Source of the DNA: Escherichia phage nepoznato | DNA length: 64,000 nt | Direction: 5' to 3' (one strand) | Sequence record: NC_052658.1 | Shown: positions 2,321 to 15,209 of the stretch, piece after piece | Layout: every line of letters starts with the position of its first letter | Position numbering within the stretch: the stretch's first letter is position 1 | The notes under the pieces: generated by a model | What the model was told of the DNA's origin: nothing | The model's input: the letters and a program-made list of their open reading frames with translations, nothing else | The model's database searches: none | Made by a program: the position numbers and the translations under genes

Positions 2321-3090
2321 AAACTATAACTGCTCATGTAAAATCTGCCTAAACGGGGGAACTCTCAACAGAGACAATCCCGTGCTAAACGTAACAGAAC
2401 TCCCAACACAGAAGAAGGGGGTACTGATATGAGAAAACAAATTCGTGATTTTGAAGGGTATGAAATTGACGAGCTTGGAAATGTTTATTGTACCAGGTAT
2501 AAGGATGAAAGAATCCTTCGCTCGTGGGAAGAAATAAACACAGGATACCAACTTGTCAGAATACGTAAAAACAAGAAAACTGTTTGCTTTCGGGTGCACA
2601 GACTTGTAGCTGAAGCGTTTTTACCCAATCCAGACAATTTACCTTATGTGAAGCATAAAGGTGACAATAGGAAAGACAACAGTGTATACAATCTTGAGTG
2701 GGGATCTTGTCCAGACAACACGCAAGAGGGTTACGATAATAACTGTTATGCTTTCTACACAAGGTGTCACAGTGTAAAAGCTACTCATAAGGCTACTGGT
2801 GAAGTTTTTTACTTTAAAAGTCTGAGATGTTGTGCTGACGCTTTAGGGTTGGACAGAAAAAGAATATCTGCAATCTTAAAACAAGGAGCACCAAATAATT
2901 ATGATTATGAGTTCTGTTACGAAATGCCTAACGACTAGCTGTGATGAATGTAGCAGCGTAGGGTGTAAGCCTATGACACCCCAAATGGTAGACATGCTTT
3001 AAGCATGAAGATATAGTCTGATCTGCATGGTGACATGCAGCAGCACGTAATGGTGCGGGAGTGGCCTTGCGAGCCACTTTGAACATAATG
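2321..3090 (+). mobile_element. Group I intron (T4 td/nrdD-like, IA2-type core) interrupting nrdD and carrying an HNH endonuclease ORF
   Basis: AAATCTGCCTAAACGGGGGAACTCTCAACAGAGACAATCCCGTGCTAAAC (about 2341-2390) closely matches the T4 td intron core as recalled; S-element-like AAGATATAGTCT at 3007-3018; intron ends in G (3090). Joining 2320 to 3091 gives SMG|CRSFL, matching E. coli NrdD PMGCRSFL. Exact boundaries are inferred, not verified. Confidence 0.7.
2429..2938 (+). CDS. HNH-family homing endonuclease (intron-encoded)
   Basis: ATG at 2429 with a GGGGG SD-like run upstream; HNH-type motif around VKHKGDNRKDNSVYNLEWGS; lies wholly inside the intron. Confidence 0.65.
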   Translation: MRKQIRDFEGYEIDELGNVYCTRYKDERILRSWEEINTGYQLVRIRKNKKTVCFRVHRLVAEAFLPNPDNLPYVKHKGDNRKDNSVYNLEWGSCPDNTQEGYDNNCYAFYTRCHSVKATHKATGEVFYFKSLRCCADALGLDRKRISAILKQGAPNNYDYEFCYEMPND

Positions 3091-4032
3091 TGTAGAAGTT
3101 TCTTGTCATACTATGCAACAGAGCAAGGAGAAAAATATGATGGACGATTCAACCTTGGAGTAGTTTCTATCAACTTGCCTCTGATTGCTGCGGAAGCGAG
3201 AAGTAAAGGAGAATCTTTCACCGATCTTCTTAATAAACATATGGAGATAGCCTACGATGCTCACATGCTACGTGTAAACCGTATCAGACATACCAAAGCA
3301 TCTGAAAACCCTATTCTTTTCATGGAAGGGGCTTTAGCGCGTTTAAATGCCAATGATGAAATTGGTGTTTTGTTTGAAGGTGGTTATGCTTCTATTAGTA
3401 TTGGTTATGTAGGTCTTGCCGAAGCTTTGGAAATCCTTTATCCAGAAGAAAAAGATAAAAAGGAACTTGGTAAAAACATTCTGCAACATATGAAAGATGT
3501 GTGTGCTGTGTTTAAAGAGCGATCTAAGCTGGCATTTAGTCTCTATGGAACTCCAGCAGAATCTTTGTGCTATAAGTTTGCAACAGCTTTAAATGAAAAA
3601 TACCCAGGTTTGGTAGAAAGAGACTATCTTACTAACTCTTTTCATCAACCTGTATGGTTGGTAACAAATCCTTTTGAAAAATGGGATTATGAAGCAGGTT
3701 TTGCACAGATTAGTAATGGTGGTAACATAAGTTATGTCGAAACACCAAACTTAAAGAATAACTTAGAAGCTTTGGAGACTTTAGTAGACTACGCTTATGA
3801 ACATATTCACTATTTTGGTATTAATCAGCCCGTGGATCAATGCTTTAAGTGTGGTTTTCATGGAGAATTTAAGGCAACGGCTAAAGGGTTTGAGTGTCCT
3901 GATTGTGGCAACCATGAAGAAGAAACTATTTCTGTAGTTAGACGTGTATCAGGGTATCTTTCTGCTCCTAATTCACGGCCTTATAACAAAGGTAAAATGC
4001 AGGAAGTTTTGCAAAGGGAGAAACATCTTTGA
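3091..4032 (+). CDS. nrdD: NrdD, exon 2 (glycyl-radical C-terminal part)
   Basis: CRSFL...GRFNLGVVSINLP, C-terminal zinc ribbon CFKCGFHGEF...CPDCGN and glycyl-radical motif RRVSGYL. The open frame begins at 3061 (GTG) but homology begins at 3091. Confidence 0.8.
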   Translation, partial: CRSFLSYYATEQGEKYDGRFNLGVVSINLPLIAAEARSKGESFTDLLNKHMEIAYDAHMLRVNRIRHTKASENPILFMEGALARLNANDEIGVLFEGGYASISIGYVGLAEALEILYPEEKDKKELGKNILQHMKDVCAVFKERSKLAFSLYGTPAESLCYKFATALNEKYPGLVERDYLTNSFHQPVWLVTNPFEKWDYEAGFAQISNGGNISYVETPNLKNNLEALETLVDYAYEHIHYFGINQPVDQCFKCGFHGEFKATAKGFECPDCGNHEEETISVVRRVSGYLSAPNSRPYNKGKMQEVLQREKHL

Positions 4033-4719: not shown

Positions 4720-5325
4720 ATGCAACATAGTGTAGTAGTCAACATGCCGAATAGTGGGGATAAATCTTTTGGTGTCCCTGCTAAAAAAGTGTGGAAAGCC
4801 CATTTTCATCTTACTTTATCTAACGTTAGTTCTGAAGAGTTGATGAAAGCAGCTAAGATTATTGGTGCCAAATGCACAACAATTGATTTACATCGGGATA
4901 CAAAGTCTCAACGTGATCGTATGTTAACAAAGTATCAAAGCGATCTCGACACTACTTTAATGTTGCAGTGTGTAGAAAAACTTGAGAATGCAGGTTTCAA
5001 TGTTGTTCGTTACAAACTGGAACGAATGTTTAAACATGTTGCCTGTGTTCTTTTCATGGATCTAAGTAAAGAAAATTATGGAGAAGTTCACATTAAGACT
5101 TCAGCAAGTGATCCCGAAGTAGAAACAAACTTCTTCCGTATTTCTTCTAATGCTGAAGAAATTGATTACCGATTTTATAATGCTCGCTTATATTCCGCAG
5201 AAGATAAGTTGCGTTTCAATGAAGCGTATGATATGCTCTTGAACAGTGGGATACAGATAAAAGGCTACCACATAGAACAAGTGGTAGTGGACAGTAATCT
5301 TAACTTAGACGCATGGTGGGCTTAA
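4720..5325 (+). CDS. Hypothetical protein; weak 2H-phosphoesterase-like HxTx motif
   Basis: GAGGAG SD; one HLTL (H-x-T-x) motif near residue 30; a second canonical motif is not clear (VHIKTS). Confidence 0.45.
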   Translation: MQHSVVVNMPNSGDKSFGVPAKKVWKAHFHLTLSNVSSEELMKAAKIIGAKCTTIDLHRDTKSQRDRMLTKYQSDLDTTLMLQCVEKLENAGFNVVRYKLERMFKHVACVLFMDLSKENYGEVHIKTSASDPEVETNFFRISSNAEEIDYRFYNARLYSAEDKLRFNEAYDMLLNSGIQIKGYHIEQVVVDSNLNLDAWWA

Positions 5326-5326
5326 T

Positions 5327-5983
5327 ATGACTATTAAACATATCTCTTTTGATGTATGGAACACACTGATCACAGCAAACTCCAATTACGCAGACATGCG
5401 AGCCTGGACTATCGCAAAATATGGAGATATTACGGAAGTGGAAGCAAGAGCAGCTTATAAGAAGATCAAAAAGGAACTGGATAATGCAGCACTTCAAGGC
5501 AAAGCCGAGTGTGCAGCATACGCCTGGGAAAGACTTGGTTCTGAACTTGGGATAACACCTTGGAAGTCTGCAAAGCTTCGTTTCGAGTGTGAACAGTGGT
5601 TCCTTAAGTTTCCACCACACGTAGCCGTGGATCTGCCGATGTACTTGCTGTATCTTTCGGGACGTTATGATTTGAGTATTAAGAGCAATACCAACTTTAT
5701 ATCAGGGGATATCCTGCGTCGTGCTTGTAAGTTTGATAGTTGGAATTGTTTTGAGTTCACCCATTTCTCGGATGAAGCTTTACTTTGTAAACCAGATCCG
5801 CGATTCTTTGCTCGCACGCTCACATATTCTCCGATCCCTCTGTTAGGGCACGAAGTATTGCACGTAGGCGATAGTGAAGAATATGATGGAAAATGTGTTG
5901 ACTTAGGATTTAACTTCTGTCATATTAAGAACCCTAACGACTTACTAGAGAAACTTAAAAGAGGAGAAATTGTAAATGCGTAA
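5327..5983 (+). CDS. HAD-superfamily hydrolase-like protein
   Basis: N-terminal ISFDVWNTLI (haloacid-dehalogenase-type DxYGT-like motif I variant) and C-terminal HVGDSEEYDG (motif IV-like). Confidence 0.5.
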   Translation: MTIKHISFDVWNTLITANSNYADMRAWTIAKYGDITEVEARAAYKKIKKELDNAALQGKAECAAYAWERLGSELGITPWKSAKLRFECEQWFLKFPPHVAVDLPMYLLYLSGRYDLSIKSNTNFISGDILRRACKFDSWNCFEFTHFSDEALLCKPDPRFFARTLTYSPIPLLGHEVLHVGDSEEYDGKCVDLGFNFCHIKNPNDLLEKLKRGEIVNA

Positions 5984-6803
5984 TCAAACTCAAATTTTTG
6001 CAAATAAATTTGATGACCTGGAAACTGCTACTTTTGATATCCAAGATTATTCAAAATTGAAATTTGGTAGTAACCAAGCCGCGCGTCGTATGGGTAAAGA
6101 ATTGGCACTTCAGTTTTTTGCTCAAGTGGCAATGAAACATATTGGGGAACAATTTGTTATCATTCCTTCTCCTTACAACCATGTGCATAATGCTGCAACA
6201 ATGATGACAGATCATTTTATTAATTACTTTAACATGTTGCAATCACAATATAATCAAGGTCGTTCAGCAGAACTGGACATTATTCATCGTAAAGTTAGCT
6301 ATATCAACGATTATGGTTTCTTGGATAAAGCTAGTCGTAAGAAACTTATTGATGGGGATACATTCTACTGCAACAAAGAATTCTGGGGTGATAAGAAGCT
6401 TGTATTCATTGATGATGTAAATATCACTGGAACGCATGAAGACAAACTGATTGAGATTCTTGATGAAAATCAAGTTAAAAATGATGTTTACTTCCTGTAT
6501 TTTGCAAAATATGAAGGTAATCAAGCAGATACCGAAGCTAAACTGAATTTTAACTACATTAATACACCAGAAGCGTTTGTTAAAATGATTAATGAAGAAC
6601 GTGATGCACAGTGTCTTGTTCGTCCTATTAAATATCTTATGGGCCAAAATCATGAAGACTTCAAAATCATTCTTAGCCAATTGCCACACTACTATGTAGA
6701 GCAACTTTTCTTCGGCTGTTTAGCTGAAGGCTACAATCGAATTGCAAAGTATACTGAAAACTTTGAATTCTTGGATCGTTACACAAAACAACACATTCTG
6801 TAA
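5976..6803 (+). CDS. Phosphoribosyltransferase (PRTase)-like protein
   Basis: KKLVFIDDVNITGT resembles the type I PRTase PRPP-binding loop; GAGGAG SD; start overlaps the end of the HAD-like gene. Confidence 0.5.
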   Translation: MRNQTQIFANKFDDLETATFDIQDYSKLKFGSNQAARRMGKELALQFFAQVAMKHIGEQFVIIPSPYNHVHNAATMMTDHFINYFNMLQSQYNQGRSAELDIIHRKVSYINDYGFLDKASRKKLIDGDTFYCNKEFWGDKKLVFIDDVNITGTHEDKLIEILDENQVKNDVYFLYFAKYEGNQADTEAKLNFNYINTPEAFVKMINEERDAQCLVRPIKYLMGQNHEDFKIILSQLPHYYVEQLFFGCLAEGYNRIAKYTENFEFLDRYTKQHIL

Positions 6804-6817
6804 TAAGGAGCTAAAAA

Positions 6818-7291
6818 ATGCTTAAAATGAAAACAGGTAATCTTATTGATGCCGCTAAAGCAGGTGAAGTAACTGTTATTGCTCATTGTTGCAATTGTAT
6901 GTGTAATATGGGGGCAGGAATTGCTCCGCAAATTAAACGAGCATTCCCTTATGCATATGCGGCGGATTTAGACACAATGGCTGGTGATCAGAGTAAGTTA
7001 GGTTCTTTTAGTTTAGGGGTGCCAGACGAACAATCAGACCCTTTGGTATATAATCTATACGGGCAATACCGTTACGGATATAATGCTAAAGGTCGTCAGT
7101 TGGACTATGATGCCCTATACGATGCACTAATAGCTATGGCTAATGATTTGCTTCTCCGTGACCAAAAATGTAAGATCGGTTTACCTATGATTGGAGCGGG
7201 ACATGCCGGAGGTAATTGGGCTATCATCCAAGTGATGATTGAAGAAACTTTAGTAAAAACAGGTCACGATGTGACTATTTATAAACTTTAA
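6818..7291 (+). CDS. Macro-domain (ADP-ribose-binding/processing) protein, divergent
   Basis: VTVIAHCCNCMCNMGAGIAPQI aligns with the macro VxNAAN..LxGGGGVDGAI region; LPMIGAGHAGGNWAII aligns with the second macro motif; 157 aa. Confidence 0.55.
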   Translation: MLKMKTGNLIDAAKAGEVTVIAHCCNCMCNMGAGIAPQIKRAFPYAYAADLDTMAGDQSKLGSFSLGVPDEQSDPLVYNLYGQYRYGYNAKGRQLDYDALYDALIAMANDLLLRDQKCKIGLPMIGAGHAGGNWAIIQVMIEETLVKTGHDVTIYKL

Positions 7292-7303
7292 GAGGAGATT
7301 AGT

Positions 7304-7525
7304 ATGGGTGTTTTTGCAGGTATTGTTGCAGTGGTAAGCTTTTTTGTTATTGCTTTTATGCTTAGTTTGATTCCAGCTTGGTTACTGTTGCTGGCTTACA
7401 ACTATGTTGCTGAAGTTATGGGTCATGCAGATATCACTGTCCCAGTAACCTTCTGGACCGTGGTTTGTGTTTCGTTTATTCTGGCTGTATTACGAGGAAT
7501 CTTTTCCTCTCATTCAACAAAATAA
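7304..7525 (+). CDS. Small membrane protein (two predicted TM helices)
   Basis: AGAGGAG SD; hydrophobic segments FAGIVAVVSFFVIAFMLSLIPAWLLLLAY and TVVCVSFILAVL. Confidence 0.5.
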   Translation: MGVFAGIVAVVSFFVIAFMLSLIPAWLLLLAYNYVAEVMGHADITVPVTFWTVVCVSFILAVLRGIFSSHSTK

Positions 7526-7528
7526 GTG

Positions 7529-7557
7529 TTGACATAGTTCTTAAAAAGAGTAAGATA
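7529..7557 (+). promoter_or_regulatory. Sigma70-like promoter upstream of terC
   Basis: TTGACA at 7529-7534, 16-17 nt spacer, TAAGAT -10-like hexamer; followed by a leader hairpin GCGGGGA/TCCCCGC (7569-7587) before the SD. Confidence 0.45.
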
Positions 7558-7604
7558 TATCACATGAAGCGGGGAATAGTTCCCCGCAAAGAGAGGAGAA
7601 AAGA

Positions 7605-8579
7605 ATGCAACTCGGTTTCCCAATTATTGATGTAGTTGTTTTAGTTGGTATTTTGGCATTGTCTATTGGTATCGATTTCTTTGGTCATAAAGAGAATAAA
7701 GAAATTGGAATTAAATCTGCTTTGCTTTGGTCTATTTTTTGGATTGCTTTAGCTTTAGGATATTACGCATTCATTTGGGTAGAACATGGTAAAGAGTTTG
7801 CCGCGCTTTTCCTAAGTGGCTATGTGTTGGAAAAGAGTCTTTCTGTAGATAACCTGATGGTGTTCATGGCAATTTTTGCAAGCTTTGGAATTAAGAGCAC
7901 ACATCTCCAACATAAGATTTTACTTTGGGGGATTGCAGGAGCCATTGTCTTCCGAGGTATTTTTGTTGCAGCAGGCACCGCTTTGTTTAACCTTCATTGG
8001 TCGGTACAAGTGTTGTTCGGTTTGATTGTAGCTTGGTCTGCCGTAGCTATCATCAAAGGTGGTGACGAAGAAGAGGATATTGATTACTCTAAGCATTGGG
8101 CTGTTCGTTTAGTAGGTAAAGTTCTGCCTGTGCACAATGCACTGGATGGTGAAAAGTTCATTACCATTAAGAATGGTATTAAATATGCAACTCCTGCTCT
8201 TCTTTGTGTGTTTGTTATTGAGCTTACAGATATTGTCTTCTCTTTTGATTCAGTTCCGGCTGTGATCGGTGTGACACAAGAACCTCTGCTGGTTTATTCT
8301 GCAATGCTGATGGCTGTTCTTGGTTTACGTGCGCTTTTCTTTGTGTTAAGTGTAGCTGTGAAATATCTGGTTCACTTAGAGAAAGCTGTTGCTGTGGTTC
8401 TGGTGTTTGTTGGTGTTAAACTTATGTATCACCCGTTCGGTGAAACACTTCATGCCAAGTGGTCATTCCTCCCGCATGATATTTCCCCTAACGTAAGTCT
8501 GATGATTGTTCTAGGCACATTAGCTCTTGGTGTTATTGCAAGCTTTATCTTCCCTGAAAAAGAAGAAGCTGCTGTTTAA
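7605..8579 (+). CDS. terC: TerC-family integral membrane protein
   Basis: Multi-pass membrane protein with the TerC signature EKSLSVDNLMVF and a second SFDSVPAV segment; 324 aa. Confidence 0.8.
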   Translation: MQLGFPIIDVVVLVGILALSIGIDFFGHKENKEIGIKSALLWSIFWIALALGYYAFIWVEHGKEFAALFLSGYVLEKSLSVDNLMVFMAIFASFGIKSTHLQHKILLWGIAGAIVFRGIFVAAGTALFNLHWSVQVLFGLIVAWSAVAIIKGGDEEEDIDYSKHWAVRLVGKVLPVHNALDGEKFITIKNGIKYATPALLCVFVIELTDIVFSFDSVPAVIGVTQEPLLVYSAMLMAVLGLRALFFVLSVAVKYLVHLEKAVAVVLVFVGVKLMYHPFGETLHAKWSFLPHDISPNVSLMIVLGTLALGVIASFIFPEKEEAAV

Positions 8580-8585
8580 TAGATG

Positions 8586-8610
8586 AGCCTCCTTCGGGAG
8601 GCTATTTTAT
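8586..8610 (+). terminator. Rho-independent terminator after terC
   Basis: Hairpin AGCCTCC-TTCG-GGAGGCT followed by ATTTTAT. Confidence 0.65.
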
Positions 8611-8621
8611 AGGAGAGACTT

Positions 8622-8972
8622 ATGAATAATTTTGATGAAATTCAAGAACTTGTTTGGGATTTATCTGGTGATGTGGATTACATTTCAGATTATCTTTCAA
8701 AAGTTTACCCTGGGGTAAGCGTTATGATTGTGACCAAAGATCCGATTAATTTGCCTCCTAATGTGGTAGCTTGTTGTGGAAGTGGTTCAGGAGAAGTAGA
8801 GCCTGTATCTCGTTGGGAATTAACTAAAGCTGTTTCAAAACGAAACGGTGAAGTTTTGAATATTGATATTGAACAAATATGGACTTCTCCAGCAGCCAAA
8901 TGGAATGATCCGAATGGTTGGGATTTGTTCTTCTGGGATAATGAAACTGATGATGAGGTATTTTTAAAATGA
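8622..8972 (+). CDS. Hypothetical protein
   Basis: ATG with SD; 116 aa; no motif. Confidence 0.45.
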   Translation: MNNFDEIQELVWDLSGDVDYISDYLSKVYPGVSVMIVTKDPINLPPNVVACCGSGSGEVEPVSRWELTKAVSKRNGEVLNIDIEQIWTSPAAKWNDPNGWDLFFWDNETDDEVFLK

Positions 8973-9214
8973 AATACTTGTTGGTTGTGTTTGAAAATAT
9001 CTGTTTTGCAATAGGGTTGTTTGTTGTAATTTTTGTATTGACAAGCGTAATCAACGGCAGTAAAGTGAGTTTATACCGAGATGGAGAGCAAATTTATTGC
9101 TTCTCTGGAGATTTCAAACACAGATGTATTAATAGTCAAAATGAGGAAAGCAAATATGAAAAAACTAGCCCTGATTTTAATTGGTTGTATCTTTTTAACA
9201 GCTTGCGAGGATGA
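8969..9214 (+). CDS. Hypothetical small membrane protein (uncertain; overlaps the lipoprotein start)
   Basis: N-terminal hydrophobic segment LLVVFENICFAIGLFVVIFVLTSV; overlaps the next gene. Confidence 0.3.
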   Translation: MKYLLVVFENICFAIGLFVVIFVLTSVINGSKVSLYRDGEQIYCFSGDFKHRCINSQNEESKYEKTSPDFNWLYLFNSLRG

Positions 9215-9593
9215 AACAAATCCTGCACAATACCAACAACCTCCTCAACAATACGCCCAACAAGGATCTGATGGAGATACAACTATTATCAACAATGGTG
9301 GCGGTTCTAGTAGTAGCGGTGTTGGTGAGTTTGCTACAGGTATGTTGTTAGGGCATATGATGAGCGGTGGTAGTAATCGTAGTGGCGGGGATTATAACGA
9401 TAACAGAACAATTATTAATAAACATTATAACACACCTAAACCGAAGACTAATTTTTATGGTAAGCCTAAACAAGAGACAAAAACTTATGAAAAGCCGAGA
9501 CAAACTTTTAAAACAAATAGTAGCTATACAACTCGTAAATCTTACAATAGCCCTTTAAGTAAAAAGAGTTCATCTCGTAGCAAGCGACGTTAA
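9156..9593 (+). CDS. Lipoprotein (signal peptide plus lipobox), Q/G/S-rich with a lysine-rich C-terminus
   Basis: MKKLALILIGCIFLTAC lipobox; GAGGA SD at 9143-9147; alternative ATG at 9141; low-complexity mature region. Confidence 0.55.
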   Translation: MKKLALILIGCIFLTACEDETNPAQYQQPPQQYAQQGSDGDTTIINNGGGSSSSGVGEFATGMLLGHMMSGGSNRSGGDYNDNRTIINKHYNTPKPKTNFYGKPKQETKTYEKPRQTFKTNSSYTTRKSYNSPLSKKSSSRSKRR

Positions 9594-9608
9594 TAAGGAG
9601 AAAAAACA

Positions 9609-10052
9609 ATGACAATTTCTATCCGTACTTCCATTACAGGTGTTAAAAGTTTGCCTAATGCTTTGCAAATTACACGCGCTTTGAGGGATACGTTCTCCGC
9701 TGTGGATGAGCATAAGATGCTTGATAATCTCTCAAATTGGCCTTATTTTCATTATTTTAAAAATGAAGACGACGAGTTTATAGATGCTGTTTCTTATGGT
9801 TATGATTTCGGTAAGGAGGTTTCTCCTGAAGAATTTGTAGCTATGGTGTTCCCAAACGGTTTGCCTACTCGCAGTAAACGTAAAAAAGGACCAAAAAACA
9901 AGAAACGTGCTACTAACAAAGCTACCATTTTCTTTACTGATGGCACACAATATACGATTAAAGATTTTGAAGAGGTATCTTATACAGCAGGTGGGAATCT
10001 TTCTTTCTACACCATCAAAAAAACAAAACCCTACGTTCAGCCATGTTTCTAA
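9609..10052 (+). CDS. Hypothetical protein
   Basis: ATG with GGAG SD; 147 aa; basic patch KRKKGPKNKKR. Confidence 0.45.
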   Translation: MTISIRTSITGVKSLPNALQITRALRDTFSAVDEHKMLDNLSNWPYFHYFKNEDDEFIDAVSYGYDFGKEVSPEEFVAMVFPNGLPTRSKRKKGPKNKKRATNKATIFFTDGTQYTIKDFEEVSYTAGGNLSFYTIKKTKPYVQPCF

Positions 10053-10206
10053 CATGATTGAAATGTTAGTAGAAGATATTGAAAGCGTGGCTGTGTTAGG
10101 TATGCATAAAAGCTTTTTAATTACAAATATTTCAGATTTCAGTGCACGTTTATCTGGCCCTGATTTTGAAGCCACGACCACGCATTTCACTTTTAAGGTG
10201 TAAGTT

Positions 10207-10797
10207 ATGCATACCGAGAGAGACTTGCAACTCTTGTGGTGGGAAGTGATGCAGGAAATAAAAGAAGATTTTCCTGTTTACTACAACATGTTACGTGAAG
10301 CAGGATATAAAGCTTGCGTTAGAAACAAAGTGAATAACTCTTTTGGTTGGTGCAATTACCGAGATAAGATTGTTGTTGTAAATTGGCACTTGCATAAGAA
10401 CTCCACAAGAGATATGATCGTGGATACAATGAAGCACGAAATTGCTCACGCTATTGATGGTTGTATGGGTAAGTTTAGTAGGCATGGTGCTCATTGGCAA
10501 AAACTGGCAGCAGAATTAGGGGCTAATCCTAAAGCCACTTCCAAAGAGCCGTTGAACCACGAATATAAATATGTTCTTGTTCTGGTAGATAGGTTTGCGA
10601 CAAGATGTGTTAGAGGTTATAATCGTAAACCTAATCGCATGTACCCAGGTAAGCAACCTAACATGTGGTTGAAATCAGATAAAGAAGGAACTGAAGGAAA
10701 ATTATGGTTGTATAAATGGGATGATTGGGTTAAAGTAGCTAAAGAGTACGGTGTTTCACCATATATAAGAGATGCAGAAGAGGAGAATGAAGAATGA
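10207..10797 (+). CDS. SprT-like zinc metalloprotease domain protein
   Basis: HEIAHAID (HExxH) in a SprT-like context, followed by ...HGAHW. Confidence 0.5.
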   Translation: MHTERDLQLLWWEVMQEIKEDFPVYYNMLREAGYKACVRNKVNNSFGWCNYRDKIVVVNWHLHKNSTRDMIVDTMKHEIAHAIDGCMGKFSRHGAHWQKLAAELGANPKATSKEPLNHEYKYVLVLVDRFATRCVRGYNRKPNRMYPGKQPNMWLKSDKEGTEGKLWLYKWDDWVKVAKEYGVSPYIRDAEEENEE

Positions 10798-11906
10798 CAA
10801 GTCCATTTTTAAAAGCAGCTACTGGTGGTCAGAAGAAGTCTGAAATGAGTGTATTCGCTGCAACAACAGATGCAAGTAAATCTGTATTCGCTCCAAGTGT
10901 GTTAGATGCCAGTCCTGTTTATGCACCAGCAGCACCGCAAGAAGTTCCAGTTTTGCCTGCTATGACCCGACAAGAGATCGAAGAGATTGGGGCAGAGGCA
11001 GGAACAACCTTGCGTTCCTTGAATGCCGAGGTATTAAAACATCAACGTAGTAATCAAGGCGATCAGATGAGTGAACGACTCACAGCTTTGATTAAACAGG
11101 CAAAACAACTTGATCCAAATTCTATTAAACAAAGCAAGGGTATTACTAAACTCATTAAAAAAGTTATGGGTATGAAAGAAGACCTGTTCGGGGAGTTTGA
11201 TAATGTTAATAACCGTATTGAAGAGTTGGTAAAGAACCTTCAAATGGATATTCGCAAAGAAGAAGATTCCTTGGTATATCTTGAAAAGCTACATCAAGCT
11301 ATTGGACAATATGCTGCAAGTTTGAACCGAGATATGCAGCTTCTAACAGCAACCTATGAAAAAGAAGAACAAGCTTTGGCTGCTCTTCCAGAAGATGCAG
11401 TAGAACAGCGACAAGTGATCCGAGATACTTTGGATCTTCTGGAGATTCGTATTGCAGATTTAAAAGCATTGCGCCTACTGTGTGTCCAAATGGGACCGCG
11501 TGTACAAGGTATGCAAAAAGTTTCTGCAAGCTTAATGCGATCTGCGCGTAACATAGTAAATAATGTTATTCCTGCTTACTCTGCTAACTTCTCAATGTAT
11601 ATCGAGAGTTTACGTCAAATGAAAGCAGCAGAGACGCAGAATAACGTTCTTGATGAATTTAACCTGGCAATTAAACTGGGTAGCGATCTTGCCACACAGA
11701 ATCAGATCGAAGCAGCAGCACTGGCTAACCGTCAAGTGTTGGATATTGAAACTCTGCGTCACGATCAGGAAAACTTGGTTAAGATGTTGGAAGAAACTAA
11801 CCGCATCAATACGGAAGCCCGTGCTGCTCGTGTTGATTATATTAATGAAGTTCAATCTCTGGAAGACGGGATGGTAGCTGCTGTGAAACGAGGGCTTGGT
11901 AAATGA
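10794..11906 (+). CDS. Coiled-coil protein, tentatively TelA-like (toxic anion resistance family)
   Basis: 370 aa, largely helical/coiled-coil; size and context (terC/terD neighbourhood) fit TelA; no diagnostic motif verified. Confidence 0.3.
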   Translation: MTSPFLKAATGGQKKSEMSVFAATTDASKSVFAPSVLDASPVYAPAAPQEVPVLPAMTRQEIEEIGAEAGTTLRSLNAEVLKHQRSNQGDQMSERLTALIKQAKQLDPNSIKQSKGITKLIKKVMGMKEDLFGEFDNVNNRIEELVKNLQMDIRKEEDSLVYLEKLHQAIGQYAASLNRDMQLLTATYEKEEQALAALPEDAVEQRQVIRDTLDLLEIRIADLKALRLLCVQMGPRVQGMQKVSASLMRSARNIVNNVIPAYSANFSMYIESLRQMKAAETQNNVLDEFNLAIKLGSDLATQNQIEAAALANRQVLDIETLRHDQENLVKMLEETNRINTEARAARVDYINEVQSLEDGMVAAVKRGLGK

Positions 11907-12100
11907 GAATCCGTATCTATATAATTGATGAAGACATTGGTGTCCGTTATGATGACGAAAAACGATTCGCACCGATGGGAGGCATATATCCCCCAAGTGT
12001 TCTAGCAGTTTGTCGTGATTGTTATATTTATGAAGGTTGTCGTAACTTCCGTAAATTCCAACTACTTGCAGATATTGACTTCAACGAGGAGGAGGAGTAA
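11903..12100 (+). CDS. Hypothetical small protein
   Basis: Start overlaps the upstream stop (translational coupling); 65 aa; acidic C-terminus. Confidence 0.4.
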   Translation: MRIRIYIIDEDIGVRYDDEKRFAPMGGIYPPSVLAVCRDCYIYEGCRNFRKFQLLADIDFNEEEE

Positions 12101-12271
12101 TGAAAATATTACGAGTGAATATTGAAACTGCTTGGTGTGGATGCAATGAGGTTGTGGATATCGAAATTGAAGATGATATGTCTCAAGAGGATATAGAAGA
12201 TCTTGCACACGAAACCTTTCAGGACTATTGTAATTACGGGTTTCATATTTTAGAGGAGGAAGAAGATGTTT
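12100..12271 (+). CDS. Hypothetical small acidic protein (57 aa, below the ORF-track cutoff)
   Basis: ATG at 12100 preceded by GGAGGAG; translation MKILRVNIETAWCGCNEVVDIEIEDD...; stop at 12269-12271. Confidence 0.4.
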
Positions 12272-12469
12272 AACTACGATAACGATCCTAATATTATCCA
12301 GTTAACCCGACAAGAACTGATCACAATCATTGAAGATGCTTTTATTGATGGTTGGAATACACAAGATAATGATTGGGGTGGACCCGAAGCTTTTCTGGAA
12401 CATCATAAAACGTATGGAGACTTTTGTGAAACCACTGTAGCTCTTGATAATCTGAAGGAGGGTTTGTAA
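12266..12469 (+). CDS. Hypothetical small protein
   Basis: GAGGAGGAAG SD; 67 aa. Confidence 0.4.
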   Translation: MFNYDNDPNIIQLTRQELITIIEDAFIDGWNTQDNDWGGPEAFLEHHKTYGDFCETTVALDNLKEGL

Positions 12470-13029
12470 TGGGTTGTTTTAGTTTTTTGTGTAAGGAATC
12501 TGGAAAAGCTGCCCTTTCTACTTCTTTCGACGGATCACCTTGTTATCTCTTTCTTTTGAAGGACGGTGTTGTTATTGAAGAGATGTATGGCAACTATGAT
12601 AGTTATGGTTGTGTTTTCTCTGGAAAGGAGGATGAAAATGGCGTTCGTGAACGGTTCGAATGGGCTATGGATTGGGGTAAGGTTTGTGATTTAATGCATT
12701 CCTCAAATCCAAGGGACGGTATTGCTATGGTGCTGGAAGAGTACTTTACAGGTGAAATCCCTACAGAACAATCTGACGGAGATCCTAATCAAGGTTGGGG
12801 TGATGGTGAAGAAGATCCAGATTGTTTTTTCAGCACAGAAAAGAATAAGTTTAAACGTGTTGACAACCCTTATCACAAAGTGCATAATACTCTCATTGAA
12901 ACAGAAGATGACAAGATGGAAATTGAAGAAGATCCTCTTGTAACACTTCCTATAAGTGAGTTACAAAAGATCACTAAGGAAGCTTACGATTTGGGCTTCA
13001 AAATTGGTAGAGGAGGTATGCGTGTTTAG
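12469..13029 (+). CDS. Hypothetical acidic protein
   Basis: Start overlaps the upstream stop; 186 aa; very acidic C-terminal half. Confidence 0.45.
   Translation: MGCFSFLCKESGKAALSTSFDGSPCYLFLLKDGVVIEEMYGNYDSYGCVFSGKEDENGVRERFEWAMDWGKVCDLMHSSNPRDGIAMVLEEYFTGEIPTEQSDGDPNQGWGDGEEDPDCFFSTEKNKFKRVDNPYHKVHNTLIETEDDKMEIEEDPLVTLPISELQKITKEAYDLGFKIGRGGMRV
12860..12888 (+). promoter_or_regulatory. Sigma70-like promoter (inside the 12469 gene) ahead of the first Ter cassette
   Basis: TTGACA (12860-12865), 17 nt spacer, CATAAT (12883-12888). Confidence 0.45.
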
Positions 13030-13300
13030 ATTCAATATTCAAGAAGAAAAGTGTCAGGATTTACCTATTGCTTTCGAAGATCTTGGCATAGGGGCCACAT
13101 TCATGTATTATGATGCCTATGAAGACGCAGGGTTGGATACATACCGTAACTTGGTGTTCATTAAAAATTCCACAAACAGTGCGATCTGTATTAATGGATC
13201 ACTAGCACAACGAGGCTATACTCATTGCATCCCGCCAGATACAAATATGGTGGAAGTAGATTTAGAAGTTACCAACATTACACTTAAGAAGGAGAAATAA
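13022..13300 (+). CDS. Small protein, paralog A of a duplicated pair (cassette 1)
   Basis: GTG start with AGGAGG at 13011-13016; about 35-40% identical by eye to the 14322 protein (shared FxIxxxK, DLxxGxTFxY, GLD, VxLxVTxITLK). Confidence 0.5.
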   Translation: MFRFNIQEEKCQDLPIAFEDLGIGATFMYYDAYEDAGLDTYRNLVFIKNSTNSAICINGSLAQRGYTHCIPPDTNMVEVDLEVTNITLKKEK

Positions 13301-13301
13301 T

Positions 13302-14096
13302 ATGTCCGAGAAAATCAGCCTGAAAAAACGTCAAGAAAACCTTGCTTTCTCTCTGAAAAAGAATAAGAACCTGAATGAAGGTAAGATTGTTCTTCGTGTA
13401 GCATGTGCTCTAGATATTTCTGGTAGTATGCATGGTCTATATTCTAGTGGGGTAGTGAGTGATTTTGTAGGTAAACTGCTTCCTTTTGGTATGCTGTTCG
13501 ACGATAATCAACAAATTGATATGTGGGCCTTCAATACGAGTTCCCAAGAGCTTACTCCAGCAACAGCAGATGTTTACGATGACTATGTTGGTAAATGTAT
13601 GCGTAATGTTCGTATCGGAGGTGGAACAAATTACGCCCCTGTAATGGCGGATATCTACGATGAGTATTTTGGCACTGTTACTAAATATATTACCACTAAA
13701 CAAGTGGTACAAGAGGAGGCTCCAAAGAAAGGCTTCTTTAATCGTCTGCTTGGTAAAACTGAAACAGTGTCTGTAGAGCGTGAAAAAGTTGTAGCTGTAT
13801 CTGAACCAGGTGCTGACGTTACCCCTGGTGTTGTATTCTTCCAGACGGATGGTGAGAATGGTGATCCTAGTGCTGTTCGTCGTCTTATCGAAGAGAATAA
13901 GAATAAACCTATTTATTGGTTCATGGTTGGCGTTGGTAATGAGAAGTTCGGCTTCCTGAAAGAACTGGCAAATGCTTATGATAATGTTGGTTTTATTGGC
14001 ATTAAAGATTTAGACTTGACAGATTCAGAGCTTTATGACAAACTCTTATCTGAAGAGTTCGGAGAGTGGGTTGTTAAAGTAGGTGCTAAAAAATGA
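13302..14096 (+). CDS. vWA-domain protein with a TerD-type N-terminal ISLKK peptide (TerF/TerY-like)
   Basis: N-terminus MSEKISLKK...FSLKK, then vWA MIDAS motif LRVACALDISGSM (DxSxS). Confidence 0.55.
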   Translation: MSEKISLKKRQENLAFSLKKNKNLNEGKIVLRVACALDISGSMHGLYSSGVVSDFVGKLLPFGMLFDDNQQIDMWAFNTSSQELTPATADVYDDYVGKCMRNVRIGGGTNYAPVMADIYDEYFGTVTKYITTKQVVQEEAPKKGFFNRLLGKTETVSVEREKVVAVSEPGADVTPGVVFFQTDGENGDPSAVRRLIEENKNKPIYWFMVGVGNEKFGFLKELANAYDNVGFIGIKDLDLTDSELYDKLLSEEFGEWVVKVGAKK

Positions 14097-14341
14097 TCGA
14101 CGAGCTTGCCTCTCAAGTCATAGAAAATTATTGGCGCGAGAGAGAAGCTTTCATTATGCGCAGTCTCAAAGAGTATTTCATTGGGACTGTGCGAATGGAA
14201 GATATTGTAAGTAGAGTAGAGATTCATGTATGGCCCGATTATGAAGAATGGGTTGACAAAGAAAATGAAAATGCTATAATTCTTCGTATATACAAACCGG
14301 AGATAACATTAGGAGGAAGAAGTGTTAAACTTCGAAATTGA
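14093..14341 (+). CDS. Hypothetical small protein
   Basis: Start overlaps the upstream stop; 82 aa; contains the next cassette's promoter. Confidence 0.35.
   Translation: MIDELASQVIENYWREREAFIMRSLKEYFIGTVRMEDIVSRVEIHVWPDYEEWVDKENENAIILRIYKPEITLGGRSVKLRN
14253..14280 (+). promoter_or_regulatory. Near-consensus sigma70 promoter ahead of the second Ter cassette
   Basis: TTGACA (14253-14258), 16 nt spacer, TATAAT (14275-14280). Confidence 0.55.
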
Positions 14342-14591
14342 TGAGCAAAAAGTAAATAAACGATGCCTTACCATTAAAGATTTGGATGTAGGAGATACTT
14401 TCGTCTATGAAAATGCATTTGACGAAAATGGTTTAGACCTTAGTGAAATCATTGTTTATTTAAAAGTAGATGATGGGGAAAATGATTGTTCTGCTGTAGA
14501 ACTAAACCATCATGCACAATTAGTATCAATCCAAAACACATCTAAGCTTTTGGAAGTAGAATTGACTGTAACTGGTATTACACTTAAATAA
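14322..14591 (+). CDS. Small protein, paralog B of the duplicated pair (cassette 2)
   Basis: GTG start with AGGAGG at 14311-14316; paralogous to the 13022 protein. Confidence 0.5.
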   Translation: MLNFEIDEQKVNKRCLTIKDLDVGDTFVYENAFDENGLDLSEIIVYLKVDDGENDCSAVELNHHAQLVSIQNTSKLLEVELTVTGITLK

Positions 14592-14606
14592 TAGAGGAGA
14601 CAAAAG

Positions 14607-15209
14607 ATGACTGATAAAATTTCCCTGAAAAAAGGCTCTAGCGAAAAAATTTCCCTGAAGAAAGTTGCTCCGGCTCTGAAAGAACTGCGCCTGGAATTCT
14701 CTTGGAAATCTGATTCTAAACTGGATCTGGATGTAAGTGCACTGGTTTGTCGTCACAATGCCGCTGGCAATCCTGAAATGCTGTCTGCACGTCACCTGGT
14801 TTGCTATGCTAACAAGTTTGATCCTGAACGTTCTACCTTCGCTGGTGACGATGTTCGTGATGGAACTGGCAGCATGGAGCAGATTGATATTACTCTGGCT
14901 AAAATCTCTCCTGATGCACAAGAGATTGCCTTTGTTCTGACCATTGATGATGATACAGGTCTGAAACGTTTTGGTCATGCTTCTGAAGGTATGCTTAAAA
15001 TCTTTGACTCCGAGCGCAATGTGGAAATTCTGGATTTTGACTTCCTGGCTCCTGAAGTAGCTGGCAACACAATCTGCCACGTGGCTTCCTTGGTTCGTGA
15101 AGATGGGGAATGGAAGCTGAAAGCATATGGTGTAGGTAAAGCTGGTCTGGATATTTGTGATGTGGTCATGGCCTTCGGTGGTAAAAAAGAATGGTATGAA
15201 TGTCCATAA
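14607..15209 (+). CDS. terD: TerD-domain protein
   Basis: N-terminal double repeat KISLKKG...KISLKK, then TerD-family motifs DLDVSAL, GDDVRDGTGS, EWKLKAYGVGKAG; codon usage strongly biased to CTG/CGT/GGT. Confidence 0.8.
   Translation: MTDKISLKKGSSEKISLKKVAPALKELRLEFSWKSDSKLDLDVSALVCRHNAAGNPEMLSARHLVCYANKFDPERSTFAGDDVRDGTGSMEQIDITLAKISPDAQEIAFVLTIDDDTGLKRFGHASEGMLKIFDSERNVEILDFDFLAPEVAGNTICHVASLVREDGEWKLKAYGVGKAGLDICDVVMAFGGKKEWYECP

What the first reader, a model, noticed from the sequence alone, without database searches (positions are those of the whole stretch)
6818..7291. Divergent macro-domain protein in the early region
The 157-aa protein aligns with both macro-domain glycine-rich motifs but has cysteines where the NAAN motif normally sits (IAHCCNCMCNMGAGIA). 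Macro domains bind or hydrolyse ADP-ribose derivatives. A phage copy could reverse host ADP-ribosylation of DNA or proteins, or sequester or degrade ADP-ribose-derived immune signals. The altered motif may indicate changed specificity.
Basis: partly seen in the sequence, partly recalled or inferred. Interest (0 to 1): 0.65.

Follow-up and report, generated by a model that had tools for sequence, protein, structure and literature searches.

The report
Common phage ADP-ribose-removing macrodomain
This gene encodes an ordinary member of a very common phage macrodomain family (T4 Tk.4/AdfM and the NAD-salvage helper Adpp) that cleaves whatever is attached to ADP-ribose in order to defeat bacterial ADP-ribosylation- or NAD-based immunity; its cysteine-rich motif is the family's normal signature and not a sign of divergence.

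Summary
The 157-aa ORF at 6818-7291 (+) is real and is a macrodomain. Its AF2 model is confident (pLDDT 92.7), and the closest solved structures are TARG1, BT1257, DarG, Poa1p and SCO6735. The window is a Phapecoctavirus (phAPEC8-like E. coli myovirus).

The "cysteines in place of NAAN" are present, but they are not a divergence. H23-x-C25-N26-C27 is near-invariant in 120 homologues and is shared with yeast Poa1p, T4 Tk.4 and Vibrio phage Gary Adpp. The position of the catalytic Lys of TARG1 and DarG is Gln83, as in SCO6735.

The family (PHROG 335) occurs in 2,928 of 50,697 phage records and in many bacterial chromosomes. Two relatives have recently been characterised:
- T4 Tk.4 = AdfM, needed to resist DarTG2 (37% identity).
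- Adpp, an ADPR-1''-phosphate phosphatase that lets NARP1 overcome aRES (41% identity).

This phage has no NARP1. The most likely role is therefore AdfM-like removal of DarT2's ADP-ribose from thymidine in phage ssDNA, with ADPR-1''P phosphatase activity as the main rival.

The gene sits directly after a HAD-PRTase_3 pair inside a phage Ter cluster. That linkage is confined to one phage subfamily.

Verdict: new member of a known kind, of modest interest.

The parts
6805..6810 (+). Shine-Dalgarno AAGGAG, 7 nt upstream of the ATG
   Evidence: Read directly from the sequence.
6818..7291 (+). Macrodomain gene, 157 aa plus stop codon; member of the Tk.4/AdfM-Adpp family (PHROG 335)
6884..6925 (+). 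Motif 1, H23-C-C-N26-C27-M-C-N-M-G-A-G-I-A36: strand beta-2 plus the first Gly-rich ADP-ribose loop. H23, N26 and C27 are invariant. N26 corresponds to SCO6735 Asn27 and DarG Asn22.
   Evidence: Roles of the residues are taken from PMC9411070 and PMC13309987.
7052..7066 (+). Motif 2, N79-L-Y81-G-Q83. Gln83 occupies the position of TARG1 Lys84, DarG Lys80 and SCO6735 Gln85. It is followed by the long 'mobile loop' (residues 84-95).
7184..7219 (+). Motif 3, P123-M-I-G-A-G-H-A130-G-G-N-W134: the second Gly-rich (diphosphate-binding) loop. Ala130 sits at the position of TARG1 Asp125.
5327..5983 (+). HAD-IA family hydrolase. It overlaps the PRTase_3 gene by 8 nt.
5976..6803 (+). PRTase_3 (ComF-like, Ter-associated phosphoribosyltransferase), immediately upstream of the macro gene
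   Evidence: PF15610, 2.3e-41.
4720..5325 (+). 201-aa protein of unknown function (PHROG 22504) that heads the tightly packed gene run. It matches PADLOC 'AbiEi' models.
7304..7525 (+). 73-aa predicted membrane protein (PHROG 16065), downstream of the macro gene
7605..8579 (+). TerC-family membrane protein
   Evidence: PF03741, 1.3e-40.
8586..8603 (+). Intrinsic-terminator-like hairpin (7 bp stem with 5 GC pairs, then a T-tract). It is the first good terminator after the 201aa-HAD-PRTase-macro-73aa-TerC run.

Best explanation
The gene encodes a stand-alone, catalytically competent macrodomain of the ALC1-like class. It belongs to the phage and bacterial 'HxCNC...[G/T]Q' family that includes T4 Tk.4 (AdfM) and the NARP1-associated Adpp. 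Inferred mechanism: the two Gly-rich loops hold the ADP-ribose diphosphate. Asn26 and Gln83 position the distal ribose, as Asn27 and Gln85 do in SCO6735. A water-mediated reaction that needs no catalytic lysine cleaves the substituent on C1'' and releases free ADP-ribose. This phage has no NARP1 pathway to use ADP-ribose. The most likely biological role is therefore that of an orphan 'antitoxin-like' counter-defence enzyme (AdfM-type): it removes the ADP-ribose that host DarT2 places on thymidines of single-stranded phage DNA, and so keeps replication going on DarTG2-carrying E. coli. Shown here: the fold, family membership, active-site conservation, gene context and the absence of NARP1. Inferred: enzymatic activity, substrate and phenotype.
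For: The fold is a macrodomain. The AF2 model has pLDDT 92.7 and pTM 0.89. Top PDB matches are TARG1 (E 4.5e-12, TM 0.87), BT1257, DarG, Poa1p and SCO6735. PADLOC DarG scores 1.6e-10. NCBIfam DarG matches only over the macro half. T4 tk.4 is the single HIDEN-SEQ hit that becomes essential on DarTG2, and a clean knockout sensitises T4. The window protein is a homologue of Tk.4: 37% identity over 124 aa, E 2e-20 and tblastn 3e-13. It shares every invariant residue with Tk.4 (G7, H23, N26, C27, G34, A36, N79, Y81, Q83, P123, G126, G128). SCO6735 (32% identity) has the same Asn and Gln, both required for activity. It cleaves thymidine-linked ADPr on ssDNA faster than DarG or TARG1 and rescues cells from DarT. 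The window protein also has SCO6735's long mobile loop. No Adps or Namat homologue (E <= 0.1) is found in the window or in the rest of a 98%-identical complete genome, so a NARP1-AP role is not available here. 19 of 27 de-replicated phage lineages of the family have no NARP genes nearby, so the family must have a NARP-independent benefit. In aquatic phage contigs the macro gene directly follows a NADAR gene, the fold of the anti-DarT1 factor AdfN.
Against: The window protein is closer to the ADPR-1''P phosphatase Adpp (41% identity over the full length, E 1.7e-34) and to NARP-linked macros (45-54%) than to T4 AdfM (34-37%, partial coverage). In a simple NJ tree it groups with the former, while Tk.4 and the Felix-like proteins branch outside. 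T4 Tk.4 lacks the long mobile loop that the window protein has. AdfM's biochemistry is itself only inferred in T4. The chimallivirus AdfM, which was assayed on DNA, is a Lys-type DarG2-like macrodomain, a different subclass. No experiment exists for any Stephanstirmvirinae copy. The tight linkage to HAD and PRTase_3 is not explained by an anti-DarT role.
Confidence: 0.5

Rival explanations
1. Adpp-type role. The enzyme is chiefly an ADP-ribose-1''-phosphate phosphatase, like Vibrio phage Gary Adpp and yeast Poa1p. It converts the product of RES-type NAD+ phosphorylases (the aRES defence) into ADP-ribose. Here it would act without NARP1, so it would serve detoxification or feed another salvage route.
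For: Adpp is the closest characterised relative: 41% identity over the full length, with the same loop lengths and motifs. AG74's operon is 95.6% identical to Gary's. The HxCNC motif is shared with Poa1p at the same residue numbers. Purified Adpp converts ADPR-1P to ADPR and is required for NARP1-AP to beat aRES from E. coli, Klebsiella and Enterobacter. 34 of 80 sampled viral loci, or 5 of 27 de-replicated lineages, have NamPT/Namat-like genes within 6 kb. PaoP5 and AG74 show the linkage in unrelated phages.
Against: This phage has no Adps or Namat anywhere. Without them, dephosphorylating ADPR-1P does not rebuild NAD+, and the published benefit depends on all three genes. Most lineages of the family are not NARP-linked.
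Confidence: 0.25
2. Pathway partner of the upstream HAD and PRTase_3 enzymes. The macrodomain would process a ribose-1''-substituted or phosphorylated intermediate of the 'nucleoside-like metabolite' made by the Ter-system biosynthetic module, or the three genes would form an undescribed NAD/ADPR salvage route.
For: The genes are tightly packed on one strand with no terminator until after TerC. HAD and PRTase_3 overlap by 8 nt, and macro starts 14 nt after the PRTase_3 stop. The order HAD-PRTase_3-macro-...-TerC-TelA is kept in Justusliebigvirus, where the proteins are only 49-65% identical. TelA, vWA-TerF and TerD follow. Iyer et al. describe phage Ter systems with PRTase plus HAD. In a Rhizobium phage the HAD-PRTase_3 pair lies beside an NMN adenylyltransferase/Nudix gene.
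Against: The linkage exists in one phage subfamily only, 2 of 27 macro lineages. The HAD-PRTase_3 pair occurs without any macro or Ter gene nearby in Rhizobium and Brevundimonas phages. Bacterial chromosomal copies of the macro family have no conserved neighbours. The macro family is far more widespread than PRTase_3: 2,928 phage records against 155.
Confidence: 0.1
3. Eraser of protein or small-molecule ADP-ribose conjugates. It would remove Glu/Asp-linked mono-ADP-ribose from proteins or deacylate O-acyl-ADP-ribose, for example the product of the phage's own Sir2-like enzyme or of host ART toxins. DNA would not be the substrate.
For: TARG1 and SCO6735 hydrolyse Glu/Asp-linked protein ADPr. 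Sources annotate many homologues as O-acetyl-ADP-ribose deacetylase. A Sir2-like gene is present elsewhere in the closely related genome anhysbys (gp163). SIR2 genes lie in the same islands as the macro gene in other phage contigs.
Against: No genetic or biochemical evidence exists for this role in any phage member. The two phenotypes known for the family involve DarTG2 and aRES. The Sir2 gene is about 50 kb away from the macro gene in the related genome.
Confidence: 0.08
4. Non-catalytic binder (sponge) that sequesters ADP-ribose-derived immune signals such as cyclic ADPR isomers.
Against: All residues required for catalysis in SCO6735 (Asn27, Gln85) are invariant in the family. Characterised relatives are enzymes. 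Nothing in the sequence suggests inactivation.
Confidence: 0.04

Closest known systems
T4 Tk.4 = AdfM (anti-DarT factor, macrodomain; HIDEN-SEQ preprint 10.1101/2025.11.20.689424)
   Same: Stand-alone phage macrodomain of about 155 aa. Same signature (H-G-C-N-C-F...MGSGVA; NLYTQ with Gln at the catalytic position; IGAGxGxGNW) and same PHROG. Not encoded next to NARP genes.
   Different: Only 34-37% identical, with 78% coverage. Tk.4 has the short loop after the Gln, like TARG1 and DarG. The genomic contexts differ: tk/vs/regB region in T4, HAD-PRTase_3/Ter cluster here.
Adpp of NARP1-AP (Vibrio phage Gary KNV71_gp137; Osterman et al. preprint 10.64898/2026.01.28.702374)
   Same: Closest characterised relative (41% identity, full length). 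Same motifs (HQCNCFCRMGRGIA, NVYGQ, IGCGLAGGDW) and the same long loop.
   Different: Adpp is encoded between Adps and Namat and works only with them. This phage has neither gene.
SCO6735 (Streptomyces coelicolor) and BT1257: the Gln-type subclass of ALC1-like macrodomains
   Same: Gln at the position of TARG1 Lys84. Asn of H-x-C-N retained. Ala at the position of TARG1 Asp125. Long mobile loop. Best PDB sequence hit (1e-12).
   Different: 32% identity. Position 27 is Cys here and Asp in SCO6735 and BT1257. Position 24 is Cys here and Val/Ile there. SCO6735 is a bacterial housekeeping or DNA-repair protein, not a phage protein.
DarG2 antitoxin and chimallivirus AdfM (PhiKZ gp104)
   Same: Macro fold of the same class. 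Asn22/23 equivalent present. Proposed shared function (removal of thymidine-linked ADPr made by DarT2).
   Different: DarG2 and PhiKZ AdfM use a catalytic Lys (K80, K78) where this protein has Gln. DarG has a C-terminal DarT-binding domain and a cognate DarT neighbour, both absent here. Identity is 28%.
Human TARG1/OARD1
   Same: Best structural match (TM 0.87). Similar first motif (AHCISEDCRMGAGIA).
   Different: The TARG1 catalytic dyad Lys84/Asp125 is replaced by Gln83/Ala130, and TARG1 has the shorter loop.
Yeast Poa1p (ADP-ribose 1''-phosphate phosphatase)
   Same: Identical H23-x-C25-N26-C27 motif at the same residue numbers. Long loop.
   Different: 23% identity. Poa1p has Ser where this family has Gln83, and it has a roughly 20-residue insertion before the second Gly-rich loop.

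Membership tests
Macrodomain superfamily (PF01661) | Three-layer alpha/beta/alpha fold with a central mixed beta-sheet | tested here: met
   AF2 model pLDDT 92.7. Foldseek found 222 PDB matches at E <= 1e-3; all 50 listed are macrodomain structures.
Macrodomain superfamily (PF01661) | Pfam gathering threshold | tested here: met
   23.0 bits against a cutoff of 22, so marginal. PHROG 335 scores 1e-55.
Macrodomain superfamily (PF01661) | Two Gly-rich loops that bind the ADP-ribose diphosphate | tested here: met
   M31-GAGIA36 and I125-GAGHAGG132. G34, A36, G126 and G128 are invariant.
Macrodomain superfamily (PF01661) | Binds ADP-ribose | not testable with these tools
   Needs ITC, a thermal-shift assay or a co-crystal.
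   The sequence is H23-C-C-N26. Only the second Asn is kept. Chikungunya and Venezuelan equine encephalitis virus nsP3 macrodomains appear only lower in the list, from rank 19; that these viral macrodomains are MacroD-type is my own knowledge of the classification.
ALC1-like class, Gln-type subclass (SCO6735/BT1257) | Gln at the position of TARG1 Lys84 / DarG Lys80 | tested here: met
   Q83, conserved in 118 of 120 homologues. The criterion comes from PMC9411070.
ALC1-like class, Gln-type subclass (SCO6735/BT1257) | Asn27 equivalent that positions the Gln | tested here: met
   N26, conserved in 120 of 120.
ALC1-like class, Gln-type subclass (SCO6735/BT1257) | Mobile loop about 5 residues longer than in TARG1 and DarG | tested here: met
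   A 5-residue gap appears in TARG1 in the HMMER alignment and in the MAFFT alignment.
ALC1-like class, Gln-type subclass (SCO6735/BT1257) | Val/Ile at the position of SCO6735 Val25 | tested here: not met
   Cys24 here (C 101/120, Q 10, G 8). The proposed role of Val25 is through its backbone carbonyl, so the side chain may not matter.
AdfM (T4 Tk.4 type) | Sequence homology to T4 Tk.4 with shared active-site residues | tested here: met
   37% identity over 124 aa, E 2e-20. Invariant columns in A1, which includes Tk.4.
AdfM (T4 Tk.4 type) | Confers resistance to DarTG2 / removes thymidine-linked ADPr from ssDNA | not testable with these tools
   Needs plaque assays and an oligonucleotide de-modification assay.
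Adpp / NARP1-AP | Sequence homology to Vibrio phage Gary Adpp | tested here: met
   41% identity over 161 aa, E 1.7e-34.
Adpp / NARP1-AP | Encoded in or next to a NARP1 operon (Adps plus Namat) | tested here: not met
   No Adps or Namat homologue in the window or in the rest of the 98%-identical genome anhysbys (tblastn E <= 0.1).
Adpp / NARP1-AP | ADPR-1''-phosphate phosphatase activity | not testable with these tools
   Needs LC-MS with purified ADPR-1P.
DarG antitoxin (type II TA, DarTG2) | Catalytic Lys (K80) | tested here: not met
   Gln83.
DarG antitoxin (type II TA, DarTG2) | C-terminal DarT-binding domain; equivalog score | tested here: not met
   The protein is 157 aa. NCBIfam NF048014 scores 36 bits against a cutoff of 250 and covers only model positions 2-147 of 338. 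PADLOC DarG covers positions 1-144 of 329.
DarG antitoxin (type II TA, DarTG2) | Adjacent darT toxin gene | tested here: not met
   The neighbours are PRTase_3 and a 73-aa membrane protein.
Ter (tellurite-resistance-type) system component | Conserved association with Ter / PRTase_3 / HAD genes across lineages | tested here: not met
   Seen only in Stephanstirmvirinae. Absent next to HAD-PRTase_3 in Rhizobium and Brevundimonas phages.

The most novel reading that the evidence does not exclude
In Stephanstirmvirinae the gene run 201aa-HAD-PRTase_3-macro would be a functional unit: a previously undescribed ADP-ribose/NAD-centred pathway. The macrodomain would liberate ADP-ribose (from ADPR-1''P, O-acyl-ADPR or ADP-ribosylated DNA or protein). 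The Ter-type PRTase_3 and HAD enzymes would then convert it, or PRPP and nicotinamide, into a nucleotide or nucleoside product. That product would either rebuild NAD+ without Adps and Namat or serve as the signal of the phage's Ter (TerC/TelA/TerD/vWA) module. This reading would give the enigmatic Ter 'nucleoside-like metabolite' an ADP-ribose origin.
Probability: 0.08. Interest if true: 0.7.

Novelty: new member of a known kind. Interest (0 to 1): 0.3.

Why it matters
This result lowers the priority of the finding. The protein is not a divergent macrodomain. It is a typical copy of a family that two 2025-2026 studies have tied to counter-defence: AdfM against DarTG2, and Adpp with NARP1 against aRES.

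What remains useful is a clean comparative point. AdfM and Adpp share one active-site signature (HxCNC...[G/T]Q, with no catalytic Lys), so the family may be a general 'ADPR-1''-X hydrolase' that serves different defences depending on the genome it sits in.

A NARP1-less coliphage such as this one is a convenient place to test whether a single enzyme does both jobs. For phage therapy, Phapecoctavirus phages probably carry built-in protection against DarTG2-bearing E. coli.

Tried and rejected
1. The idea that the cysteines mark an aberrant or metal-binding site. Conservation analysis shows they are a family signature shared with Poa1p, SCO6735 and Tk.4. Model coordinates are not exposed, so Cys-Cys distances could not be measured. 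A structural or redox role for C25 and C27 stays open.

2. NARP1-AP membership. I searched the window and the rest of a 98%-identical genome for Adps and Namat and found none.

3. A 2H cyclic phosphodiesterase upstream, which would have recreated the Appr>p -> Appr-1''p -> ADPR pathway. The 201-aa protein has HLTL and HIKT motifs, but its AF2 model (pLDDT 81.8) has no significant PDB match (best TM 0.27) and no 2H hit.

4. Macro as a regular Ter or PRTase_3 partner. Rejected outside one subfamily.

5. A bacterial operon partner such as DarT, RES or KptA for chromosomal homologues. The five loci inspected have unrelated housekeeping neighbours.

6. The original Ter paper (PMC4104200) is not held, and a search for papers on Poa1p's catalytic residues found none held.

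7. The sigma-70 promoter scan gave fewer hits than shuffled controls, so nothing can be said about transcription timing.

8. Two tool calls failed on input rules and were repeated in corrected form.
Full report
**Observation.** The window carries an ATG-initiated ORF at 6818-7291 (+) that encodes 157 aa. An AAGGAG ribosome-binding site precedes it at 6805-6810, and the ORF begins 14 nt after the stop codon of the upstream gene. This is a real, conserved gene. The protein database returns 264 relatives, from 96% identity (E 4e-97) downwards. A 4-kb stretch around the gene is 90-99% identical in about 70 phage genomes. The window is a Phapecoctavirus (Stephanstirmvirinae; phAPEC8-like E. coli myovirus of about 150 kb), 98% identical to phages EF1-1 and anhysbys.

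**Is it a macrodomain?** Pfam Macro (PF01661) is only just significant, at 23.0 bits against a cutoff of 22. Everything else agrees. PHROG 335 scores 1e-55. PDB sequence hits are SCO6735 (1e-12), BT1257 (2e-8), Thermus DarG (9e-7) and human TARG1 (3.5e-6). PADLOC DarG scores 1.6e-10 over the macro part of the model. An AlphaFold2 model built on 36 homologues is confident (pLDDT 92.7, pTM 0.89). Its best matches among solved structures are TARG1 (E 4.5e-12, TM 0.87), BT1257, DarG, Poa1p and SCO6735, and all 50 listed matches are macrodomain structures. The fold assignment stands.

**The "cysteines instead of NAAN".**
- The cysteines are there, but NAAN is the MacroD-type version of this strand. 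This protein belongs to the ALC1-like class (TARG1, DarG, SCO6735, Poa1p).
- In 120 homologues the motif IAH-C-C-N-C-[F/M]-C-[T/N]-MGAGIAPQIK is almost invariant: H23 in 119/120, C24 in 101, C25 in 115, N26 in 120, C27 in 118 and C29 in 78.
- Yeast Poa1p has H23-S-C25-N26-C27 at the same residue numbers. I checked that sequence against PDB 6LFQ and 6LFU.
- Related motifs are T4 Tk.4 HGCNC, Vibrio phage Gary Adpp HQCNC, SCO6735 HVCND, BT1257 HICND, and TARG1 AHCISEDCRMGAGIA.
- The second Asn of NAAN is retained as N26. It corresponds to SCO6735 Asn27 and DarG Asn22, both functionally important.
- The motif is a family signature and not a divergence.

**Active site.**
- The position of the catalytic lysine of TARG1 (K84) and DarG (K80) is Gln83, conserved in 118/120 homologues. 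TARG1 Asp125 corresponds to Ala130.
- This is the arrangement of SCO6735. There Gln85 and Asn27 are each required, the mechanism is proposed to be water-mediated, and a mobile loop five residues longer than in TARG1 or DarG helps DNA binding. The window protein has that longer loop.
- In an alignment that also contains T4-type Tk.4 and the HY02, PaoP5 and AG74 proteins, the invariant residues are G7, H23, N26, C27, G34, A36, D50, G62, N79, Y81, Q83, P123, G126 and G128.
- Nothing suggests loss of catalysis.

**How common is it?** tblastn finds the family in 2,928 of 50,697 phage records. These include T4-like phages (gene tk.4), Felixounavirus, rV5-like phages, Ackermannviridae, Pakpunavirus, Vibrio phages and jumbo phages. 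It is also abundant in bacterial chromosomes, with at least 519 confirmed hits across Bacteroidota, Desulfobacterota, Gammaproteobacteria and Cyanobacteria at 39-47% identity. In the five chromosomal loci inspected it is a stand-alone gene of about 150 aa with unrelated housekeeping neighbours.

**What relatives are known to do.** Two recent studies bear directly on the family.
- A transposon screen of T4 found tk.4 to be the single gene that becomes essential on a DarTG2-expressing host. A clean knockout sensitises T4, and the gene was named adfM. Its biochemistry was inferred from similarity to DarG. An independent AdfM in chimalliviruses (PhiKZ gp104) removes DarT2 modifications from DNA in vitro, but it is a Lys-type, DarG2-like macrodomain.
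- In 15% of NARP1 operons a macrodomain gene accompanies Adps and Namat. The Vibrio phage Gary protein (Adpp) converts ADPR-1''-phosphate, the product of RES-type NAD+ phosphorylases (the aRES defence), into ADP-ribose, and it is needed for NARP1 to overcome aRES.
- Pairwise BLASTP of the window protein gives Gary Adpp 41% over 161 aa (E 1.7e-34), PaoP5_017 (NARP-adjacent) 41%, T4 Tk.4 37% over 124 aa (E 2e-20), SCO6735 32%, DarG 28%, TARG1 29% and Poa1p 23%.
- In an NJ tree without support values the phage proteins form one clade next to SCO6735 and BT1257. Tk.4 and the Felix-like proteins branch first. The window protein lies in the larger group that also holds Adpp and the NARP-linked proteins.

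**Gene context.**
- The gene lies in a same-strand run: NrdD/NrdG, a 201-aa ORF, HAD (5327-5983), PRTase_3 (5976-6803), macro, a 73-aa membrane protein and TerC (7605-8579), followed by a good terminator at 8586-8603. Further on come SprT-like, TelA, vWA-TerF-like and TerD genes. This is a phage copy of the Ter system with its PRTase and HAD "biosynthetic" genes, as described for other phages by Iyer et al..
- The order HAD-PRTase_3-macro-TerC-TelA is kept in Justusliebigvirus, where the macro proteins are 49% identical. PRTase_3 occurs in only 155 phage records. In Rhizobium and Brevundimonas phages the overlapping HAD-PRTase_3 pair has no macro or Ter gene nearby.
- In a sample of 80 IMG/VR loci, 34 have a NamPT/Namat-like gene and 29 an Adps/Prs-like gene within 6 kb of the macro gene, in several gene orders. 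After de-replication at 60% identity this is 5 of 27 lineages, against 2 with PRTase_3 and 19 with neither.
- In aquatic phage contigs the macro gene directly follows a NADAR gene inside islands that also hold NAMPT, Nudix, SIR2, HAD and PRPP synthetase.

**Does this phage have NARP1?** No. tblastn with Adps and Namat from two phages finds nothing at E <= 0.1 in the window or in the remaining roughly 88 kb of the 98%-identical genome anhysbys. That genome does encode a Sir2-like protein (gp163), which lies outside the window.

**Synthesis.** Family membership and catalytic competence are well supported. The substrate is not determined by sequence, because AdfM and Adpp share the same signature. 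The family may be a general hydrolase for substituents on C1'' of ADP-ribose, as TARG1 and SCO6735 are.

Because this phage lacks the enzymes that give ADPR-1''P dephosphorylation its published benefit, I rank the AdfM-type role first (about 0.5). In that role the enzyme removes DarT2's thymidine-linked ADP-ribose from phage ssDNA. An Adpp-type phosphatase role comes second (about 0.25), supported by the higher similarity to Adpp. Coupling to the neighbouring HAD and PRTase_3 (about 0.1), protein or OAADPr erasing (about 0.08) and a non-catalytic sponge (about 0.04) are minor alternatives. These roles are not mutually exclusive.

**Novelty.** This is a new member of a known kind. The family's counter-defence roles were published in 2025-2026. 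No paper held addresses the Stephanstirmvirinae copy. Interest is modest. The open points are which of the two activities, or both, this NARP1-less copy provides, and whether its fixed position after HAD-PRTase_3 in a Ter cluster means anything.

Noticed in passing
window 5327-15209: A near-complete phage-borne Ter system: HAD (5327-5983), PRTase_3 (5976-6803), TerC (7605-8579), SprT-like (10207-10797), TelA (10794-11906), vWA-TerF-like (13302-14096) and TerD (14607-15209). It matches the 'Ter system in phages' noted by Iyer et al. 2021. Its function in phage is unknown; superinfection exclusion has been proposed.
   Followed up: partly
window 5327-6803; L089 4070-5585; L090 5342-6846: The HAD and PRTase_3 genes form an overlapping two-gene module that is conserved in three unrelated phage groups (Stephanstirmvirinae, Rhizobium Kleczkowskaviridae, Brevundimonas/Caulobacter jumbo phages). 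In Rhizobium phage RHph_Y65 it lies one small ORF away from an NMN adenylyltransferase/Nudix gene, and no Ter genes were detected nearby. PRTase_3 has no PDB relative by sequence.
   Followed up: partly
window 4720-5325: A 201-aa ORF heads the gene run. It has no Pfam or NCBIfam hit and belongs to PHROG 22504 (unknown function). It matches two PADLOC 'AbiEi' models nearly end to end (E 4.7e-13 and 4e-12). The AF2 model (pLDDT 81.8) shows two ferredoxin-like beta-alpha-beta halves with no significant PDB match. Invariant His28, His30, Thr32, His124 and Lys126 suggest an enzyme. It could be another orphan antitoxin-like protein.
   Followed up: partly
window 2321-3099: nrdD is interrupted by an insertion of about 780 bp that is absent from phage EF1-1. 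The insertion holds an HNH-like ORF (2429-2938, 169 aa) and a full-length Rfam group I intron match at 2801-3040 (39.3 bits, below the gathering score of 50; E 2.5e-8). This is probably a mobile group I intron with a homing endonuclease, as in T4 nrdD.
   Followed up: partly
L002 4129-7159; L006 970-4480; L014, L033, L034, L042, L049, L052, L064, L086: Macro homologues lie inside or beside NARP1-like gene pairs (Adps/Prs-like plus Namat/NamPT-like) in at least four gene orders and five de-replicated lineages. This is consistent with the published NARP1-AP (Adpp) arrangement.
   Followed up: yes
L173 3851-5450; L174 1205-2151; L176 3881-5450: In aquatic phage-like contigs a NADAR gene (the fold of the anti-DarT1 factor AdfN) lies one or two genes upstream of the macro gene, abutting it in L174 and L175. 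Both sit within NAD/ADPR islands (Nudix, YAcAr, NAMPT, HAD_SAK_2, SIR2, NMNAT, PRPP synthetase). They may be a paired guanine- and thymine-ADPr eraser cassette.
   Followed up: no
L087 43451-44266 (phage anhysbys gp163; outside the window): The closely related complete genome encodes a Sir2-like NAD-dependent enzyme (272 aa). It is a potential source of O-acyl-ADP-ribose or ADP-ribosylated targets for the macrodomain.
   Followed up: no
L003 4734-5450; L005 4995-5780; P0035, P0036, P0042: Some family members carry extra segments. Justusliebigvirus PHB05 gp179 is annotated with an N-terminal extension of about 85 aa, as are metagenomic proteins of 220-223 aa. Felixounavirus HY02 gp013 has a C-terminal extension of about 100 aa. 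I did not check whether these are real domains or mis-called start codons.
   Followed up: no
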